The notes under the pieces were generated by a model. That model made no database searches. It saw only the letters and a program-made list of their open reading frames with translations, and was not told the origin of the DNA. The translations under genes and the position numbers were made by a program. From Candidatus Binataceae bacterium (GTDB taxonomy: Bacteria; Desulfobacterota; Binatia; Binatales; Binataceae), in contig JBKQNE010000082.1 of the NCBI GenBank assembly GCA_052146355.1, forward strand, positions 1 to 24,000: DNA of 24,000 nucleotides, in the 5' to 3' direction. Positions 9,391 to 16,356 of this stretch are shown here, one piece after another; position 1 is the first letter of the stretch, and the number at the start of each line of letters is the position of its first letter.

Positions 9391-9780
9391 GTGGGTGGGG
9401 TTCTGACGGCATCGCCAATCAACATCGTGCTGATGGCATTGGCACTGGTCGCCGCGCAGGTTTCGATGACCAGCGCGGCCACGATCTCTGCCGATGCGCG
9501 CACCGAAGCGAATACGCTGATGTCCGATCGATGCGCCGTCTGCCACGGCGACAACGGCGATGGCAACGGTCCGGGCGCATCGAATATGAATCCCGGCCCC
9601 CAGAATTTTCACGATCGCAAGTGGCAGCAAGGCGTGAGCGACGCGACGCTGGTCAAGGCGATCATCTATGGTGGCGCCGCCGTCGGTGTGAATGCATCGA
9701 TGCCCTCCAATCCTGATTTGGCGGACCGTCCGGATGTCGTTGGTGCGCTGGTGGAGCAAATCCGCATTTGGGGTAAGTGA
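9391..9780 (+). CDS. monohaem class I c-type cytochrome (exported)
   Basis: Single CAVCH haem-binding motif followed by GDNGDGNG, and a distal Met candidate (NASMPSNP). Hydrophobic N-terminal signal (INIVLMALALVAAQVSMTSAA). The start is uncertain: GTG 9391, ATG 9433 or the track's GTG 9268. Confidence 0.75.
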   Translation: MGGVLTASPINIVLMALALVAAQVSMTSAATISADARTEANTLMSDRCAVCHGDNGDGNGPGASNMNPGPQNFHDRKWQQGVSDATLVKAIIYGGAAVGVNASMPSNPDLADRPDVVGALVEQIRIWGK

Positions 9781-9813
9781 TCGAACTTGGCTGGGCGACG
9801 GGGGAATCACAGC

Positions 9814-10344
9814 ATGAAACGACGGGAGTTTCTTAAGACCAGCGCGCTGCTGGTCGTCGGGTCGGCCGCGGCGGCATCGGGAATCGTCAGTGTCGCGGGC
9901 GCGGACCAGGGCGAGCCGCAGTTCACTACGCTGACCTCGCCTGAGGCCGCGACACTGCTCGCGGTCACGCGCCGGATTTTTCCGCATAAGCAGCTCGACG
10001 ACGCGCCCTACTGGAAAGTGGTCGGCGAACTCGACGCCGCGGCGAAGAACGATCCCGCGGTGGCCAGGCTGCTCGCCGCCGGCGTCGATCAGCTCAATGC
10101 ATCGCAGTTCACAACCCTCGACGAAAAACAGCAGACCGCGATCCTCAAAGCGATGGAGTCCGGCCCGTTCTTTCAGAAGGTGCACAGCGTCGAGTTGCTG
10201 ACTCTCTACAGCGACCCTGCGGTCTGGAAGGCGTTTGGGTACCAGGGTCCGGCCTACAAATTCGGCGGCTACATTCGCAGAGGCTTCGATGATCTCGCGT
10301 GGCTGCCCAATCCTCCCGAATCTGCTAGTCCCAAGCCCGCCTGA
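9814..10344 (+). CDS. Tat-exported small subunit of a flavoprotein dehydrogenase (gluconate 2-dehydrogenase subunit 3-like)
   Basis: ATG 9814 has GGGGGAA upstream. The twin-arginine signal is MKRREFLKTSALLVVGSAAAASG. At about 176 aa, it sits 10 nt upstream of a GMC flavoprotein, the arrangement seen in membrane-bound FAD dehydrogenase complexes. Confidence 0.7.
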   Translation: MKRREFLKTSALLVVGSAAAASGIVSVAGADQGEPQFTTLTSPEAATLLAVTRRIFPHKQLDDAPYWKVVGELDAAAKNDPAVARLLAAGVDQLNASQFTTLDEKQQTAILKAMESGPFFQKVHSVELLTLYSDPAVWKAFGYQGPAYKFGGYIRRGFDDLAWLPNPPESASPKPA

Positions 10345-10354
10345 GGTATGAGCC

Positions 10355-13970: not shown

Positions 13971-14756
13971 ATGGGAACAGCATCTGCCACGCTTGGGGAA
14001 CGGCAGCGGCGTCTCGAACTGCGCGCGCTGCTCAACAAGCGCTACAAGTGGATCGATCGCAAGTGGGACATCGTGTTCTGGGTCACGGCGATTTTCGTGG
14101 TCGGCGGCGCCGCGGATATTACCAAGCAGCTATTCGCCGGGGACTGGGATTTCTGGACTGATTGGAAGGACCCGCAATGGTGGCCGGTCATCACCGCCTT
14201 CGCGACCATCATCATTCCCTCCGCCCTGCAATATATCCAGTGGACTGCATGGCGTTTCCCCACCGGCGCGACCTACACAGCGGTATGTTTCTTCATGTGC
14301 GCGTGGGTGGGCAGATTCTTCCAGTGGCACATCGCGGAAAATTACCCGCTGAATTTCGTCTGGCCCGCGTCGACGGTGTGCGCTGCGATTATCCTTGATT
14401 GGCTGCTGCTTAAGACTCGCAGCTTCATCCTGACCTCGTTATTCGGCGGACCGATATGGGCGTTGCTGGTCTGGGCGTTCAACTACATACCACTGGCTCC
14501 GTTCCTCCAGCCGGCCCACTTCATGAACCACGTGCTGACCGTGGCGGATGTGCAGGGCATCGTCCTGATCCGCTCGCAGACTCCCGAGTATCTGCGCCAC
14601 ATCGAACGCGGCGCGCTGCGCAGCTTCCTGGGAGAGACCCAGTACGTATCGCTGGTGTTCGGCGGAACCGTTGCCGTGGCAGGCTACTGGATCGGTCAAT
14701 TCATCGGTAGATATCTCGCCGTGTGGCCAATACGCCGTTACATAAAGACGCTGTGA
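13971..14756 (+). CDS. pmoA: copper membrane monooxygenase subunit A (PmoA/AmoA family)
   Basis: Hallmark blocks GDWDFWTDWKD, YPLNFVWPAS, TVADVQG and TPEYLRHIERGALRSF line up with PmoA/AmoA signatures. Size of 261 aa fits. A GGGGAG/GGGGGA RBS lies upstream. Confidence 0.9.
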   Translation: MGTASATLGERQRRLELRALLNKRYKWIDRKWDIVFWVTAIFVVGGAADITKQLFAGDWDFWTDWKDPQWWPVITAFATIIIPSALQYIQWTAWRFPTGATYTAVCFFMCAWVGRFFQWHIAENYPLNFVWPASTVCAAIILDWLLLKTRSFILTSLFGGPIWALLVWAFNYIPLAPFLQPAHFMNHVLTVADVQGIVLIRSQTPEYLRHIERGALRSFLGETQYVSLVFGGTVAVAGYWIGQFIGRYLAVWPIRRYIKTL

Positions 14757-14761
14757 AACCG

Positions 14762-15091
14762 ATGCAATCAAACCGCCGCCCTCGCATCGCGTCGGTGTGT
14801 GCCACTGTCGCGTGGATCGCCGCGTCGGCATCAATCGCCAGCGCGCACGGTGGGATGGCGGGTCCCGACGAGCTCGGACGCCCGCTGATCACTTCAGTGA
14901 TCCTCGCTGCGGTCTGCTATTGGGTGGTCATCCTATGGCCATCGCGCAAGCCGAACACCAAGGTGCCCTCAAACACGGGAGGATCGCGCAACCGCCGCGC
15001 GCGGCCGCGCCGTCCGGTCGGCATACAAGGTGGGACGCGAGCCGGTGCGCCCTATGAGGCTCGCGGCTGGCAGAAGGGTCGTGGCGAATGA
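14762..15091 (+). CDS. small membrane protein encoded between pmoA and pmoB (no recognisable family)
   Basis: It fills an otherwise unexplained 331-nt pmoA-pmoB gap. Its TGA (15089-15091) overlaps the pmoB ATG (15088-15090) in an ATGA junction. Third codon positions are GC-rich like its neighbours. It has a predicted signal peptide ending ASA, mature N-terminus HGGMAGPDE, one TM helix (LITSVILAAVCYWVVILW) and an Arg/Lys-rich tail. GTG 14723 is an alternative start that would overlap pmoA. Confidence 0.55.
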   Translation: MQSNRRPRIASVCATVAWIAASASIASAHGGMAGPDELGRPLITSVILAAVCYWVVILWPSRKPNTKVPSNTGGSRNRRARPRRPVGIQGGTRAGAPYEARGWQKGRGE

Positions 15092-16356
15092 TGGAAAAGA
15101 AAGCGATCGTAAAGCCGCTCATTGCCGGCGTTCTTTTTCTCGCTGTCGCCGCGATGGTTATCGGTCCGTCTAAAGCATTCGCCCACGGCGAAGCGGGTGA
15201 CGAACCGTTCCTGAAGGATCTCACCACCGCGTTCTACGACGTGAAAGTCTCTCCTACCGAAATCCATGTCGGCGAGCCGGTGACGGTTACCGGCACGGTG
15301 CGAATTCTCGAGACCTGGCCGTACACACTCGATCCGCCCGCGACTGCGTACATCACTCCCGTAGTGCCTGGTCCCGTGTTCGCGCTCCAGGATCGCACCG
15401 TCAACGGACAGTCCGCGCCCGGCTCGTTCTTTGTCGACCGGGGCGGCGTCTATCAATTCAAGATGGTCATCCTCGGCCGCGAGCCCGGACGATGGCACGT
15501 GCATCCTGGCATCGCGATCCAGGGCACGGGCACGCTCATCGGTCCCGGCGAATGGGTCAACGTCGCGCCAAGTGCCACGAAGTTCAGCTTCCCGATAAGC
15601 CTGCTGAGCGGACAGACGATCGATCTCGAAAGCTATAATGGCCGGTTCGTCTGGTGGTGGTCGTTCGCGGGGTTCCTGATCGGCGTCGCGTGGATGCTCT
15701 ATTGGACGCTCTCCAAGCGGACCGTGACTAACCTGGCCGTGACGTTGCAAATCGGCGTGAACGACGCCGCTCCGGATATCGGACTCATCACGCCGCGCGA
15801 CCAGATGTGGATGAACGTGTTTGCGGGAATTACCGTCGCGCTGCTGATCGTCGGATGGTTCTACGCGACCAATCGCTATCCGGTTCGATGGCCGCAGCAA
15901 ACCGCCTGGTTCACGCCCAAGATTATCGCGACCGATCAGAAGCTGGCCGAGGTAGAGCCGGAAGGTGCGATCTGGAACGATGGCACCGACACGCTGGTAA
16001 TGAAGGTGCAGGCGCGGAATATCAGCAATGCGCCCATCACGGTGAAGGAATTCATCATCGCGATGGCAACCTTCGTCAACGGCGGCGCTGACGAGCAGGC
16101 GAAGGCGGGGCCGCACGATTACGTGGGACAGCTCGAAGTTGAACCGAACACGCCGATCGCGCCGGGTGAGTCGAGGGAACTCACGCTCAAGATCACGAAC
16201 CCGGTGCTGAGCGAAGAGCGCCTGATTCCGAGCCGCGATCCGCAGCAATTCATCGCCGGGCTGCTCCGCTTTCAGAACGCCGGCGGCGGCGAACAATTCG
16301 TCACAACGCGCGTAAGCGTGGTCCCGACGCAGTTCAAGGCCCAGTACCTTCCCTGA
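15088..16356 (+). CDS. pmoB: copper membrane monooxygenase subunit B (PmoB/AmoB family)
   Basis: The signal peptide ends AFA, exposing H33-G-E. The RWH137VH139PG motif gives the His33/His137/His139 CuB ligand set with the same numbering as M. capsulatus PmoB. There are two central TM helices (FVWWWSFAGFLIGVAWMLYW and VFAGITVALLIVGWFY) and a C-terminal beta-rich domain. Confidence 0.9.
   Translation: MMEKKAIVKPLIAGVLFLAVAAMVIGPSKAFAHGEAGDEPFLKDLTTAFYDVKVSPTEIHVGEPVTVTGTVRILETWPYTLDPPATAYITPVVPGPVFALQDRTVNGQSAPGSFFVDRGGVYQFKMVILGREPGRWHVHPGIAIQGTGTLIGPGEWVNVAPSATKFSFPISLLSGQTIDLESYNGRFVWWWSFAGFLIGVAWMLYWTLSKRTVTNLAVTLQIGVNDAAPDIGLITPRDQMWMNVFAGITVALLIVGWFYATNRYPVRWPQQTAWFTPKIIATDQKLAEVEPEGAIWNDGTDTLVMKVQARNISNAPITVKEFIIAMATFVNGGADEQAKAGPHDYVGQLEVEPNTPIAPGESRELTLKITNPVLSEERLIPSRDPQQFIAGLLRFQNAGGGEQFVTTRVSVVPTQFKAQYLP

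What the first reader, a model, noticed from the sequence alone, without database searches (positions are those of the whole stretch)
9391..16356. Single 8-gene transcription unit joining a flavocytochrome dehydrogenase, a copper chaperone and a copper membrane monooxygenase
Seen directly: eight co-directional genes with very small gaps. The gaps are 33, 10, 18, 19, 27 and 5 nt, plus one 4-nt ATGA overlap. The order is cyt c, Tat small subunit, GMC FAD dehydrogenase, Sco1 fusion, pmoC, pmoA, small orf, pmoB. Canonical CuMMO operons are pmoCAB/amoCAB, sometimes with pmoD/amoD or copCD. I do not know of a described CuMMO operon that carries its own three-component periplasmic flavoprotein-cytochrome dehydrogenase. 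Inference: the dehydrogenase could oxidise the alcohol (or hydroxylamine-like) product of the monooxygenase. Its electrons could return through the co-encoded cytochrome c. That would be a genetically hard-wired version of the long-debated direct-coupling model for supplying reductant to pMMO.
Basis: partly seen in the sequence, partly recalled or inferred. Interest (0 to 1): 0.85.

Follow-up and report, generated by a model that had tools for sequence, protein, structure and literature searches.

The report
Binataceae copper monooxygenase–acetol dehydrogenase operon
A soil bacterium of the uncultured Binataceae carries one tight eight-gene cluster joining a copper membrane monooxygenase to a periplasmic flavoprotein dehydrogenase, most likely an acetone-to-methylglyoxal pathway of a kind already shown in volcanic methanotrophs, not a new way of powering methane oxidation.

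Summary
There are eight co-directional genes at 9391-16356 with gaps of 33, 10, 18, 19, 27 and 5 nt and one 4-nt overlap. No convincing internal terminator was found.

The gene content is: monoheme cytochrome c, Tat-signal small subunit, GMC/FeS flavoprotein, a PmoD–Sco1 fusion, pmoC, pmoA, a conserved small membrane ORF, and pmoB.

The linkage is conserved. Of 80 species-level Binatia loci chosen by PmoA alone, 44 have this GMC gene within 10 kb, in at least four different gene orders. Another 21 carry a PQQ alcohol dehydrogenase instead.

The claim that no such CuMMO operon is described is wrong. Methylacidiphilum has gmcAB–gloA–pmoCAB3–pmoD; there PMO3 oxidises acetone to acetol and purified GmcAB oxidises acetol to methylglyoxal, reducing a c-type cytochrome.

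GMC proteins 70-75% identical to this one sit beside glyoxalase I in 22 CuMMO-free loci. Three sister operons end in gloA. The best reading is therefore CuMMO (acetone→acetol) plus acetol dehydrogenase plus its cytochrome acceptor.

Electron return to the monooxygenase ("direct coupling") is untested. The cytochrome gene is missing from about a third of linked loci, which weakens that idea.

Verdict: new variant of a known kind, moderate interest.

The parts
9391..9780 (+). Monoheme class-I cytochrome c (129 aa) with an N-terminal signal or anchor, a CAVCH haem motif and a candidate distal Met in 'NASMPS'. Proposed electron acceptor of the dehydrogenase.
   Evidence: Pfam Cytochrom_C E 6e-7. 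There are only weak PDB matches to mono- and dihaem c cytochromes. A homologue lies directly upstream of the small subunit in 30 of 44 GMC-linked genome loci. It is absent from all gloA-linked loci that lack a CuMMO.
9814..10344 (+). Small 'hitch-hiker' subunit (176 aa) with a twin-arginine signal (MKRREFLK). It would carry the FAD/FeS large subunit to the periplasm. An in-frame TTG at 9787 is an alternative start.
   Evidence: Pfam Gluconate_2-dh3, 24.3 bits against a cut-off of 23.4; FAD-SLDH is a weaker match. It is always immediately upstream of the GMC gene in more than 100 loci. It has no PDB sequence match.
10355..11923 (+). GMC-family FAD dehydrogenase large subunit (522 aa). It has a GSGAGGG dinucleotide fold, His95 in TTVHW (the position of the covalent-FAD His), and a three-Cys FeS motif C193-x5-C199-x3-C203 (ACWQLGFCFQGCK). 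Proposed acetol → methylglyoxal dehydrogenase.
   Evidence: Pfam match. Best solved relatives are the fructose dehydrogenase large subunit 7W2J (E 1.7e-48) and FAD-glucose dehydrogenase 6A2U (E 1.5e-41); the three cluster Cys align. Glyoxalase linkage of 70-75% identical relatives is shown.
11942..13084 (+). PmoD–Sco1 fusion (380 aa). Layout: signal peptide, then a PmoD-like periplasmic domain (about residues 27-150, starting AWA|HRFGG, with Cys36 and His46 conserved), a TM helix (about 152-177), a basic loop, a second hydrophobic segment ending in a lipobox-like AAGC (207-210), and a Sco1 thioredoxin-fold domain with CPGVC (253-257) and His341. Proposed copper handling for the CuMMO.
   Evidence: Pfam SCO1-SenC E 1.5e-19. 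PDB Sco1 1ON4 E 1e-11 and PmoD 6CPD E 6.5e-9, with alignment. In other Binatia the two halves are separate genes, with Sco1 upstream of pmoC and pmoD downstream of pmoB.
13104..13943 (+). CuMMO subunit C (279 aa)
   Evidence: Pfam AmoC E 1e-45. The alignment to PmoC 4PHZ keeps DGxWH…PxH (the CuC ligands) and NEWGH…PxHW (the CuD ligands). It scores below the NCBIfam equivalog cut-offs.
13971..14756 (+). CuMMO subunit A (261 aa)
   Evidence: Pfam AMO E 3e-55. It is 78-97% identical to PmoA of Binatia MAGs. Published trees place Binatia sequences of this type in the Actinobacteria/SAR324 hydrocarbon-monooxygenase clade.
14762..15091 (+). orfX (109 aa): signal peptide, a predicted mature N-terminus HGGMAGPDELG, one TM helix (…CYWVVILWPS) and an Arg/Lys-rich tail. 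This is the 'x' of the published CAxB order. Proposed accessory membrane subunit or copper-handling peptide.
   Evidence: There is no Pfam, NCBIfam or PDB match. tblastn detects it between pmoA and pmoB in 72 of 80 genome loci. The core AHA|HGG[MI]AGPDELGPP…CYW.V.LWPS is conserved. A similar 87-aa ORF is present in Caldinitratiruptor.
15088..16356 (+). CuMMO subunit B (422 aa). Its start overlaps the orfX stop (ATGA).
   Evidence: Pfam Monooxygenase_B E 6e-78. The alignment to M. capsulatus PmoB 3RGB (E 1e-61) keeps the N-terminal His (AFA|HGE) and the HxH of the CuB site (RWHVHP).
8944..9390 (.). A 447-nt non-coding stretch upstream of the first gene and the likely promoter region. It contains an (AGGGGTT)x3.4 repeat at 9165-9188.
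   Evidence: Sequence; TRF. No sigma-70 consensus and no Rfam match were found. The promoter assignment is inference only.

Best explanation
This is an operon for periplasm-facing oxidation of a C3 ketone or alcohol, built like the Methylacidiphilum pmoCAB3 cluster.

**Proposed steps**
1. The CuMMO (PmoCAB plus orfX) hydroxylates acetone to acetol. It may also hydroxylate propane to 2-propanol.
2. The Tat-exported GmcB/GmcA-type flavo-iron-sulfur dehydrogenase oxidises acetol to methylglyoxal.
3. Its two electrons pass FAD → FeS cluster → the co-encoded monoheme cytochrome c → the respiratory chain.
4. The PmoD–Sco1 fusion handles copper for the monooxygenase.

**Shown:** gene content, spacing, conservation of metal ligands, conservation of the linkage, and glyoxalase linkage of close GMC relatives.

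**Inferred:** substrates, the cytochrome's partner, co-transcription, and the roles of PmoD–Sco1 and orfX.
For: **1. Operon anatomy.** Gaps are at most 33 nt, there is one 4-nt overlap, and there is no credible terminator.

**2. Conserved linkage.**
- 44 of 80 PmoA-selected Binatia species loci have the GMC gene within 10 kb. Of the rest, 21 have a PQQ-ADH instead, 1 has neither, and 14 contigs are too short to tell.
- The module sits upstream of pmoC in the window's clade and downstream of pmoB in others. The arrangements follow the PmoA tree.

**3. The product is methylglyoxal.**
- GMC proteins 70-75% identical to this one are flanked by glyoxalase I in 22 loci that lack a CuMMO.
- Tepidimonas sp. 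HKU79 has small–GMC–DJ-1/PfpI–RHH–GloA–GshA–GloB.
- In three sister loci with the window's gene order (L005, L006, L091; the L005 and L091 gloA products are identical, so these may represent only two organisms), an E. coli-like gloA follows pmoB directly.
- In an NJ tree the CuMMO-linked GMCs are nested among the gloA-linked ones.

**4. Experimental precedent.**
- Methylacidiphilum carries gmcAB–gloA–pmoCAB3–pmoD. PMO3 oxidises acetone to acetol (PMC8630023; PMC12235487).
- Purified GmcAB (AceDH) oxidises acetol to methylglyoxal with Km 2.3 µM. It does not oxidise methanol, propanols or 1,2-propanediol. It reduces a c-type cytochrome.
- IT6 PmoD boosts acetone → acetol conversion by pMMO (PMC8764830).

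**5. Motif similarity.** The window's FeS motif CWQLGFCFQGC shares GFCFQGC with AceDH's CDQCGFCFQGC.

**6. C3 context in relatives.**
- A Zn-ADH lies between pmoB and the cytochrome gene in about 25 loci. It is 54-58% identical to the ADH of the actinobacterial and Firmicute CuMMO clusters.
- Those clusters also carry mim/prm-type accessory genes (amidohydrolase, DUF59). The Firmicute cluster (L087) additionally has a MimR-like activator and a DJ-1/PfpI gene.

**7. Intact catalytic sites.** The CuB, CuC and CuD ligands are all present.
Against: - No gloA, gloB, lactate dehydrogenase or Zn-ADH lies in the window's own cluster or anywhere in the 24 kb.
- The window's GMC could not be aligned to the characterised AceDH (WP_009059725.1). 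That sequence was not obtainable, and it was not recognisable among the best 150 cluster representatives. Full-length relatives outside the subfamily reach only 49-57% identity (four clusters, none with the AceDH motif), and those carrying a four-Cys motif are about 40% or less, so identity to AceDH is probably 40% or below.
- The [Cu-4Fe-4S] ligands Asp188 and Cys190 are replaced by Trp and Leu, so the cluster chemistry differs.
- This CuMMO belongs to a different clade from PMO3. Cultured members of its clade (Nocardioides CF8, Mycobacterium) oxidise C2-C4 alkanes.
- Lactaldehyde or 1,2-diols could also yield methylglyoxal or related products.
- Both trees are NJ without bootstrap support.
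- Co-transcription was not measured.
Confidence: 0.6

Rival explanations
1. Short-chain alkane pathway. The CuMMO is a C2-C4 alkane (or alkene) monooxygenase like those of Nocardioides CF8 and Mycobacterium NBB4. The GMC dehydrogenase oxidises the resulting alkanol or a diol in the periplasm. Electrons go through the cytochrome c to the terminal oxidase, with no involvement of acetone.
For: - Published trees put Binatia PmoA of this type with the actinobacterial butane/hydrocarbon monooxygenases.
- Binatia lineages without the GMC carry a PQQ alcohol dehydrogenase near pmoB instead. This looks like non-orthologous replacement of an alcohol-oxidising step.
- Zn-ADH genes are frequent neighbours.
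Against: - The close GMC relatives are tied to glyoxalase I/II, DJ-1 and GshA, which points to methylglyoxal rather than a simple aldehyde or ketone.
- gloA directly follows pmoB in three sister operons.
- This rival partly overlaps the best explanation if propane → 2-propanol → acetone feeds the same cluster.
Confidence: 0.2
2. One reading: a hard-wired redox loop. The dehydrogenase's two electrons pass through the co-encoded cytochrome c directly back to the CuMMO, so the enzyme pair is self-sufficient in reductant (direct coupling).
For: - The stoichiometry fits. Hydroxylation needs 2 e- and oxidation of the hydroxylated product yields 2 e-.
- The cytochrome gene is found only with CuMMO-linked GMC genes and never in the 22 gloA-linked CuMMO-free loci.
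- It is the first gene of the operon in the window's whole clade.
Against: - 14 of 44 GMC-linked genome loci lack the cytochrome gene. An example is LLM–pmoCAxB–small–GMC–Sco1.
- In arrangement D the only cytochrome is a 32-36% identical gene on the opposite strand.
- The Methylacidiphilum homologue reduces cytochrome cGJ, the general acceptor of XoxF methanol dehydrogenase. Its cluster potential of +275 mV suits delivery to the oxidase branch.
- No sequence feature links the cytochrome to PmoB or PmoC.
- Nothing computational can test the electron path.
Confidence: 0.12
3. C1/N reading. The CuMMO is a methane or ammonia monooxygenase, and the GMC enzyme oxidises methanol, formaldehyde or hydroxylamine.
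For: - The subunits hit the AMO/pMMO Pfam families and all copper ligands are kept.
- Binatota CuMMOs have been discussed as possible methanotroph markers.
Against: - Scores are far below the NCBIfam AMO and pMMO equivalog cut-offs, for example AmoA 200 bits against 290.
- The clade lies among hydrocarbon monooxygenases, and a 2026 survey found no methanotrophic pathway in such Binatia MAGs.
- No hao, xoxF or mxaF gene lies in the window.
- GMC relatives are linked to methylglyoxal detoxification.
Confidence: 0.05
4. Coincidental adjacency. The cytochrome/small/GMC genes are an unrelated sugar-acid or polyol dehydrogenase that happens to lie next to the CuMMO genes.
For: - The best solved relatives are fructose and glucose dehydrogenases.
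- The small subunit hits the gluconate 2-dehydrogenase family.
- The small+GMC pair also occurs widely without any CuMMO.
Against: - The linkage persists across at least four gene orders and about 70 independent loci, with gaps of operon size.
- Among the scanned loci, GMC proteins at least 76% identical to this one lie next to pmoCAxB wherever the contig is long enough to tell, except L128 and probably L129.
- The trihaem cytochrome subunit typical of sugar dehydrogenases is absent.
Confidence: 0.03

Closest known systems
Methylacidiphilum C3 cluster (M. caldifontis IT6 IT6_09370-09425; M. fumariolicum SolV Mfumv2_1600-1612): glcDF–gmcAB–gloA–pmoCAB3–pmoD–ppsA
   Same: - A CuMMO operon is physically joined to a GMC large subunit, a Tat-signal small subunit and a PmoD.
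- Glyoxalase I is linked too, but here only in sister genomes.
- The dehydrogenase is periplasmic and donates to a c-type cytochrome.
- The FeS motif GFCFQGC is shared.
   Different: - The phylum differs, and so does the CuMMO clade (hydrocarbon-monooxygenase clade rather than verrucomicrobial PMO3).
- The FeS motif has three Cys and lacks Asp188 and Cys190, so a [Cu-4Fe-4S] cluster is unlikely.
- A dedicated monoheme cytochrome c gene is inside the operon.
- PmoD is fused to Sco1 and placed before pmoC.
- An extra orfX lies between pmoA and pmoB.
- The window has no lactate dehydrogenase, PEP synthase or gloA.
- Sequence identity to AceDH could not be measured.
Membrane-bound flavoprotein–cytochrome dehydrogenases (Gluconobacter fructose dehydrogenase 7W2J; Burkholderia FAD-glucose dehydrogenase 6A2U; gluconate 2-dehydrogenase; FAD-sorbitol dehydrogenase)
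   Same: - The large subunit is homologous over its whole length (E 1e-41 to 1e-48).
- It has the same C-x5-C-x3-C cluster motif.
- The covalent-FAD His position is kept.
- There is a small Tat-signal subunit, encoded upstream.
   Different: - The cytochrome partner is a 129-aa monoheme protein, not a trihaem membrane subunit that reduces ubiquinone.
- It is encoded upstream rather than downstream.
- The Cys that forms the inter-subunit disulfide in FAD-GDH is Trp here.
- The genomic context points to a C3 hydroxy-ketone, not a sugar.
Actinobacterial and Firmicute CuMMO clusters (Carbonactinospora thermoautotrophica, Caldinitratiruptor microaerophilus) and the cultured C2-C4 hydrocarbon monooxygenases of Nocardioides CF8 and Mycobacterium NBB4
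   Same: - They belong to the same broad PmoA clade, at 66-70% identity.
- An orthologous Zn-ADH is linked to the CuMMO in some Binataceae.
- An orfX-like peptide is present in Caldinitratiruptor.
   Different: Those clusters use amidohydrolase–DUF59–Zn-ADH upstream of pmoC. They have no GMC dehydrogenase, cytochrome c or Sco1 in the neighbourhood.
AlkJ of the Pseudomonas putida GPo1 alk operon (from my own knowledge; not tested here)
   Same: A GMC-family alcohol dehydrogenase is encoded in the same operon as a membrane hydrocarbon hydroxylase and oxidises that hydroxylase's product.
   Different: AlkJ is a single-subunit, cytoplasm-facing, quinone-reducing enzyme with no FeS cluster. It is paired with the di-iron AlkB, not a copper enzyme.

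Membership tests
Copper membrane monooxygenase (CuMMO: pMMO/AMO/HMO) | Three subunits C, A and B encoded together | tested here: met
   PF04896, PF02461 and PF04744 match with E 1e-45 to 6e-78, in the order C-A-(x)-B.
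Copper membrane monooxygenase (CuMMO: pMMO/AMO/HMO) | PmoB CuB ligands (N-terminal His33, His137, His139 in M. capsulatus numbering) | tested here: met
   The alignment to 3RGB_A pairs AFA|HGE with the N-terminal His and RWHVHP with DWHVHT.
Copper membrane monooxygenase (CuMMO: pMMO/AMO/HMO) | PmoC CuC (Asp156/His160/His173) and CuD (Asn227/His231/His245) ligands | tested here: met
   DGAWH…PTH and NEWGH…PFHW are kept in the alignment to 4PHZ_K. Residue numbering is mapped from my own knowledge of the Bath sequence.
Bacterial AMO or pMMO orthologue (NCBIfam equivalogs AmoA/B/C_BACT, CH4_NH3mon_ox_A/B/C) | Score at or above the curated equivalog cut-off | tested here: not met
   AmoA_BACT 200 against 290; AmoB_BACT 282 against 336; AmoC_BACT 169 against 319; the TIGR models also fall below their cut-offs.
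Acetol dehydrogenase AceDH (GmcAB) of methanotrophs | GMC large subunit plus an adjacent small subunit with a Tat signal | tested here: met
   Genes at 9814-10344 (RREFLK) and 10355-11923, 10 nt apart.
Acetol dehydrogenase AceDH (GmcAB) of methanotrophs | Encoded in one cluster with a CuMMO operon and pmoD | tested here: met
   Same strand, with 18-19 nt gaps to PmoD–Sco1 and pmoC.
Acetol dehydrogenase AceDH (GmcAB) of methanotrophs | Genomic linkage to the glyoxalase system (methylglyoxal as product) | tested here: inconclusive
   Not present in the window. It is met in three sister loci with the same gene order (gloA after pmoB: L005, L006, L091; the L005 and L091 products are identical), in 22 CuMMO-free loci with 70-75% identical GMC, and in Tepidimonas.
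Acetol dehydrogenase AceDH (GmcAB) of methanotrophs | [Cu-4Fe-4S] binding motif CDQCGFCFQGC (Cys187, Asp188, Cys190, Cys193, Cys197) plus a Met from the small subunit | tested here: not met
   The window has CWQLGFCFQGC: Asp→Trp, Cys190→Leu, three Cys left. The whole subfamily shares this. There is no Met in the last 50 or so residues of the small subunit. The preprint says the motif is also absent from the Methylocella acetol dehydrogenase.
Acetol dehydrogenase AceDH (GmcAB) of methanotrophs | Sequence orthology to the characterised enzyme WP_009059725.1 or to the Methylocella silvestris enzyme | not testable with these tools
   Neither sequence could be obtained. Neither appeared among named hits or in the PDB copy.
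Acetol dehydrogenase AceDH (GmcAB) of methanotrophs | Acetol → methylglyoxal activity with a cytochrome c acceptor | not testable with these tools
   This needs an enzyme assay.
Three-subunit flavoprotein–cytochrome dehydrogenase (FDH / FAD-GDH / gluconate 2-DH type) | FAD large subunit with a 3Fe-4S motif, homologous over its full length | tested here: met
   7W2J_A E 1.7e-48 over residues 11-515. The three cluster Cys are aligned.
Three-subunit flavoprotein–cytochrome dehydrogenase (FDH / FAD-GDH / gluconate 2-DH type) | Trihaem membrane-bound cytochrome c subunit that reduces ubiquinone | tested here: not met
   The only cytochrome is 129 aa with a single CxxCH.
PmoD / Sco1 copper proteins | PmoD periplasmic domain followed by a TM helix; Sco1 CxxxC…His thioredoxin fold | tested here: met
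   6CPD E 6.5e-9, with the Cys and the IHITxFQP His conserved (the two Met of CMVM are not). A TM helix follows at about 152-177. SCO1-SenC E 1.5e-19, CPGVC at 253-257, His341. Copper binding itself is untested.

The most novel reading that the evidence does not exclude
In Binataceae the operon's own monoheme cytochrome c shuttles the two electrons released by acetol oxidation straight back to the copper monooxygenase. This would give a closed periplasmic loop, acetone + O2 → methylglyoxal + H2O, with no quinol input. It would be a genetically encoded example of the 'direct coupling' long debated for pMMO and methanol dehydrogenase. The conserved orfX peptide, with a predicted N-terminal His after signal cleavage, could be the docking or copper site for this transfer.
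Probability: 0.1. Interest if true: 0.85.

Novelty: new variant of a known kind. Interest (0 to 1): 0.5.

Why it matters
**Reinterpreting environmental pmoA data.** pmoA-like genes from Binatia are common in soils and are sometimes counted as possible methanotroph markers. If this operon is an acetone/C3 pathway, those sequences report consumption of volatile ketones and short alkanes, not methane. The CuMMO–acetol dehydrogenase pairing shown in thermoacidophilic Verrucomicrobia would then have been assembled independently in a second phylum from a different CuMMO clade.

**Testable enzymology.**
- A three-Cys counterpart of the newly reported [Cu-4Fe-4S] acetol dehydrogenase.
- A dedicated cytochrome partner that makes the electron route experimentally tractable.
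- A natural PmoD–Sco1 fusion that ties PmoD to copper delivery.
- A conserved small ORF that may be an unrecognised CuMMO subunit.

Tried and rejected
**Searches that did not find the characterised enzymes**
- I tried to obtain the characterised AceDH or the Methylocella GMC sequence for a direct comparison. It was not in the PDB copy. It was not recognisable among the 150 best 50%-cluster representatives or their named members. It was not among the named hits of a profile built from gloA-linked GMCs.

**Outgroup and PDB checks**
- The nearest outgroup I examined, at 56% identity, sits in an array of five tandem GMC paralogues with no CuMMO. It gave no functional information.
- The small subunit and orfX have no PDB sequence match.

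**RNA and regulatory signals**
- Rfam found nothing in the window.
- The sigma-70 scan found nothing. No promoter is claimed.

**A method that under-counted**
- My first crude ORF caller missed most gloA genes because of antisense shadow ORFs in high-GC DNA. tblastn corrected the count from 5 to 21-22.

**Readings considered and rejected**
- Chance adjacency, because the linkage is conserved in several gene orders.
- A canonical three-subunit sugar dehydrogenase, because there is no trihaem subunit.
- AMO or pMMO orthology, because scores are below the equivalog cut-offs.

**Not attempted**
- Structure prediction. Sequence-level matches already settled domain identities, and a monomer model cannot test the electron path.

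Full report
**Observation**

The window contains eight co-directional genes on the + strand: 9391-9780, 9814-10344, 10355-11923, 11942-13084, 13104-13943, 13971-14756, 14762-15091 and 15088-16356. The gaps are 33, 10, 18, 19, 27 and 5 nt, and the last two genes overlap by 4 nt in ATGA.

Pfam and NCBIfam assign the products as follows:
- a monoheme cytochrome c (one CAVCH motif);
- a Tat-signal small subunit of the gluconate-2-dehydrogenase-subunit-3 family (RREFLK; 24.3 bits against a cut-off of 23.4);
- a GMC flavoprotein;
- a SCO1/SenC-containing fusion;
- AmoC, AmoA and AmoB family proteins;
- one small ORF with no family.

The consensus scan finds fewer terminator-like hairpins in 8400-17000 than shuffled sequence would give (2 against 7.1 ± 2.9). 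Neither is credible: one is antisense and the other lies inside pmoA. No sigma-70 consensus was found. Third-position GC is uniform across the eight genes, 0.71-0.78. Co-transcription is likely but was not measured.

**Origin of the sequence**

The GMC protein is identical to one that NCBI names from a "Candidatus Binataceae bacterium" MAG, on a 31-kb contig. PmoA is 97% identical to that of a Binatia MAG and 78-94% identical to dozens more.

Murphy et al. 2021 (PMC8262859) already reported that Binatota CuMMO genes occur as CAB or CAxB, sometimes with pmoD. They placed most of them in the Actinobacteria/SAR324 short-chain-hydrocarbon clade. They do not mention a GMC dehydrogenase, cytochrome or Sco1. 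No paper in the searchable library contains both "Binat…" and "GMC".

A 2026 survey found that Binatia MAGs with such pmoA-like genes lack methanotrophic pathways and sit among hydrocarbon monooxygenases.

**The individual proteins**

*The monooxygenase.*
- PmoB keeps the N-terminal His and the HxH of the CuB site.
- PmoC keeps the CuC (DGxWH…PxH) and CuD (NEWGH…PxHW) ligands.
- All three subunits score well below the NCBIfam equivalog cut-offs for bacterial AMO and pMMO.
- So this is an intact CuMMO that is not an orthologue of the canonical methane or ammonia enzymes.

*The "Sco1 fusion".* It is a PmoD–Sco1 fusion.
- Residues 36-146 match PmoD (PDB 6CPD, E 6.5e-9), with the Cys and the IHITxFQP His conserved.
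- A TM helix and a basic loop follow, then a second hydrophobic segment ending in a lipobox-like AAGC.
- The Sco1 domain carries CPGVC and a downstream His.
- In other Binatia the two halves are separate genes, with Sco1 before pmoC and pmoD after pmoB.

*The GMC protein.*
- It is homologous over its full length to the large subunits of fructose dehydrogenase (7W2J, E 1.7e-48) and FAD-glucose dehydrogenase (6A2U).
- It keeps the His position used for covalent FAD (TTVH95W).
- It keeps the three cluster Cys: C193-x5-C199-x3-C203.
- The cytochrome, however, is a 129-aa monoheme protein and not the trihaem membrane subunit of those enzymes. The "three-component" label is therefore only loosely right.

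*orfX.*
- It is conserved between pmoA and pmoB in 72 of 80 genome loci.
- Its core is signal peptide–AHA|HGG[MI]AGPDELGPP–TM (CYW.V.LWPS)–basic tail.
- A similar ORF exists in the Firmicute Caldinitratiruptor.

**Is the linkage conserved?**

I scanned one genome per species with a PmoA profile and took 10-kb flanks. The eight window proteins were then mapped by tblastn. This selection is blind to the dehydrogenase. Of the 80 loci:
- 44 have the GMC gene. Of these, 30 also have the cytochrome homologue, 14 have a Zn-ADH and 12 have the PmoD–Sco1 fusion.
- 21 have a PQQ alcohol dehydrogenase instead, together with a multicopper oxidase and a cupredoxin.
- 1 has neither, despite long flanks.
- 14 are too short to judge.

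Gene tables for representative loci show at least five layouts:
- (A) cyt c–small–GMC–PmoD/Sco1–pmoCAxB, as in the window;
- (B1) LLM–pmoCAxB–small–GMC–Sco1, with no cytochrome;
- (B2) pmoCAxB–ZnADH–cyt c–small–GMC–Sco1;
- (D) small–GMC…cyt c(−)–Sco1–pmoCAxB;
- (E) pmoCAxB–hyp–ZnADH–small–GMC–HbpS-like–CusF-like.

These layouts map onto clades of an NJ PmoA tree (no bootstrap). The flanks of the block are not conserved. Linkage that survives this much rearrangement argues for a functional connection.

**What does the dehydrogenase make?**

A reverse scan of metagenome contigs with the GMC protein split the family in two.
- Copies at least 76% identical lie next to pmoCAxB wherever the contig is long enough. 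The exceptions are L128 and probably L129.
- Copies 70-75% identical are small+GMC pairs with no CuMMO within 10 kb. Arrangement D is the exception: L168 carries pmoC and pmoA, and the short contigs L163, L165 and L166 look like fragments of the same layout.

In 22 of the CuMMO-free loci a glyoxalase I gene is directly adjacent, usually as gloA–small–GMC.

In the isolate Tepidimonas sp. HKU79 the pair is followed by DJ-1/PfpI, an RHH protein, GloA, GshA and GloB, all between transposases.

In three sister loci with the window's own gene order (L005, L006, L091), an E. coli-like gloA follows pmoB directly as a ninth gene. The L005 and L091 gloA products are identical, so these may represent only two organisms.

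In an NJ tree the CuMMO-linked GMCs form two clades nested among gloA-linked ones. This suggests that an existing methylglyoxal-producing enzyme was recruited to the CuMMO locus, perhaps twice.

The product of this subfamily is therefore very probably methylglyoxal. That makes acetol the obvious substrate.

**Comparison with the literature**

This is the logic of the Methylacidiphilum C3 cluster, glcDF–gmcAB–gloA–pmoCAB3–pmoD–ppsA.
- PMO3 there is an acetone monooxygenase producing acetol, and the cluster is induced 20- to 330-fold on 2-propanol or acetone (PMC8630023; PMC12235487).
- Purified GmcAB ("AceDH") oxidises acetol to methylglyoxal with Km 2.3 µM. [quoted passage not shown] It reduces cytochrome cGJ. 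It contains a [Cu-4Fe-4S] cluster bound by CDQCGFCFQGC plus a Met of the small subunit (bioRxiv 10.64898/2026.06.11.731722).
- IT6 PmoD enhances acetone → acetol conversion by a pMMO (PMC8764830).

The window's motif, CWQLGFCFQGC, shares GFCFQGC but lacks Asp188 and Cys190. The same is true throughout its subfamily. A plain 3Fe-4S-type cluster is expected. The preprint notes that the Methylocella acetol dehydrogenase also lacks the copper motif.

I could not obtain the AceDH sequence, so orthology is unmeasured. Full-length relatives outside the subfamily reach 49-57% identity in four clusters, none of which carries the AceDH motif. The relatives with a four-Cys motif are about 40% identical or less.

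Further C3 hints come from relatives.
- The Zn-ADH inserted in layouts B2 and E is 54-58% identical to the ADH of the actinobacterial and Firmicute CuMMO clusters.
- Those clusters also carry amidohydrolase and DUF59 genes typical of mim/prm propane–acetone monooxygenase clusters. The Firmicute cluster (L087) additionally has a MimR-like activator and a DJ-1/PfpI gene.

**Mechanism proposed**

1. The CuMMO (PmoCAB plus orfX) hydroxylates acetone to acetol. It may also hydroxylate propane to 2-propanol.
2. The Tat-exported small/GMC heterodimer oxidises acetol to methylglyoxal in the periplasm.
3. Electrons run FAD → FeS → the operon's cytochrome c → the respiratory chain.
4. PmoD–Sco1 serves copper supply or assembly.
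5. Methylglyoxal is handled by glyoxalases encoded elsewhere in this genome.

Anatomy, ligand conservation, linkage and glyoxalase association are shown. Substrates, electron route and accessory roles are inferred. I put about 0.6 on this model as a whole, about 0.75 on methylglyoxal as the product, and about 0.5 on acetone as a physiological CuMMO substrate.

**Rivals**

- A plain C2-C4 alkane pathway, with the GMC enzyme as alkanol dehydrogenase (0.2). The clade's cultured members and the PQQ-ADH replacement support it. It does not explain the glyoxalase association.
It is stoichiometrically neat, and the cytochrome gene occurs only in CuMMO-linked operons. But a third of linked loci lack that gene, the Methylacidiphilum enzyme uses a general cytochrome, and no analysis here bears on the electron path.
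- Methane or ammonia oxidation (0.05) and chance adjacency (0.03) are poorly supported.

**Verdict**

The functional linkage is well supported by comparative genomics. The specific novelty claim fails, because a CuMMO operon with its own periplasmic GMC dehydrogenase is already described and biochemically validated.

What is new:
- the occurrence in Binataceae, with a different CuMMO clade;
- the three-Cys dehydrogenase variant;
- the in-operon monoheme cytochrome;
- the PmoD–Sco1 fusion;
- the conserved orfX.

I rate it a new variant of a known kind, with interest 0.5. Its main value is to reinterpret Binatia pmoA-like genes as markers of C3/ketone oxidation and to offer a tractable system for asking how a CuMMO gets its electrons.

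Noticed in passing
window 14762-15091; also L002-L081 between pmoA and pmoB; L087 8782-9045: orfX is a conserved small membrane protein. After the predicted signal cleavage (…AHA|HGG) it would start with His. The motif HGG[MI]AGPDELGPP, one TM helix (CYW.V.LWPS) and a basic tail follow. An N-terminal His next to Met is reminiscent of histidine-brace copper sites. It may be an unrecognised CuMMO subunit or copper peptide. It has no Pfam or PDB match.
   Followed up: partly
L084/L085 12458-17313 and about 21 other genome loci (e.g. L042, L047, L052-L057): Binatia CuMMO operons without the GMC module instead carry pmoD, a multicopper oxidase, a 242-aa cupredoxin-like protein and a PQQ alcohol dehydrogenase downstream of pmoB. 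A separate Sco1-like gene lies upstream, with an Fe-ADH on the opposite strand. This looks like non-orthologous replacement of the alcohol-oxidising step.
   Followed up: partly
L174 (Tepidimonas sp. HKU79, CP187301.1) 9311-15447: small–GMC–DJ-1/PfpI–RHH–GloA–GshA–GloB forms a compact island bracketed by several transposase genes. This suggests a mobile acetol/methylglyoxal module.
   Followed up: no
L087 (Caldinitratiruptor microaerophilus) 359-10256; L086 (Carbonactinospora thermoautotrophica) 4184-10032: These CuMMO operons are preceded by amidohydrolase–DUF59–Zn-ADH. L087 also has a MimR_N sigma-54 activator, an IclR regulator and DJ-1/PfpI. This is the accessory set normally seen with soluble di-iron propane/acetone monooxygenases, as if a CuMMO had replaced the SDIMO.
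   Followed up: no
L012 (DATFSZ010000168.1), whole locus: This member of the window's PmoA clade has PmoD–Sco1–pmoCAxB but no cytochrome, small subunit or GMC gene within 10 kb. The dehydrogenase module can be lost or moved.
   Followed up: no
window 9165-9188: A perfect (AGGGGTT)x3.4 tandem repeat lies in the 447-nt non-coding stretch upstream of the operon. It is G-rich on the coding strand. Its function is unknown.
   Followed up: no
window 5409-7628 (-): A 739-aa secreted-looking GH5 cellulase with two CBM2 cellulose-binding domains. Repetitive linker DNA gives tandem repeats at 5739-5807. A 72% identical copy also lies upstream of the operon in L005.
   Followed up: no
window 20000-24000: GC drops to about 0.55-0.56 with strongly positive AT skew. 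The long minus-strand ORFs here (20250-22097, 22031-23110, 22663-23571) have no Pfam match. This may be foreign or fast-evolving DNA.
   Followed up: no
L089 4649-13323: The nearest GMC outgroup I examined (56% identity to the window protein) occurs as five tandem GMC paralogues in a marine contig, with no small subunit called and no CuMMO.
   Followed up: no
L082 4667-6019, L088 109-1461 and about 15 other loci: A 450-aa luciferase-like monooxygenase is conserved immediately upstream of pmoC in the cytochrome-less layout (LLM–pmoCAxB–small–GMC–Sco1). A distant LLM (25% identity) lies at window 17698-18858 on the opposite strand.
   Followed up: no
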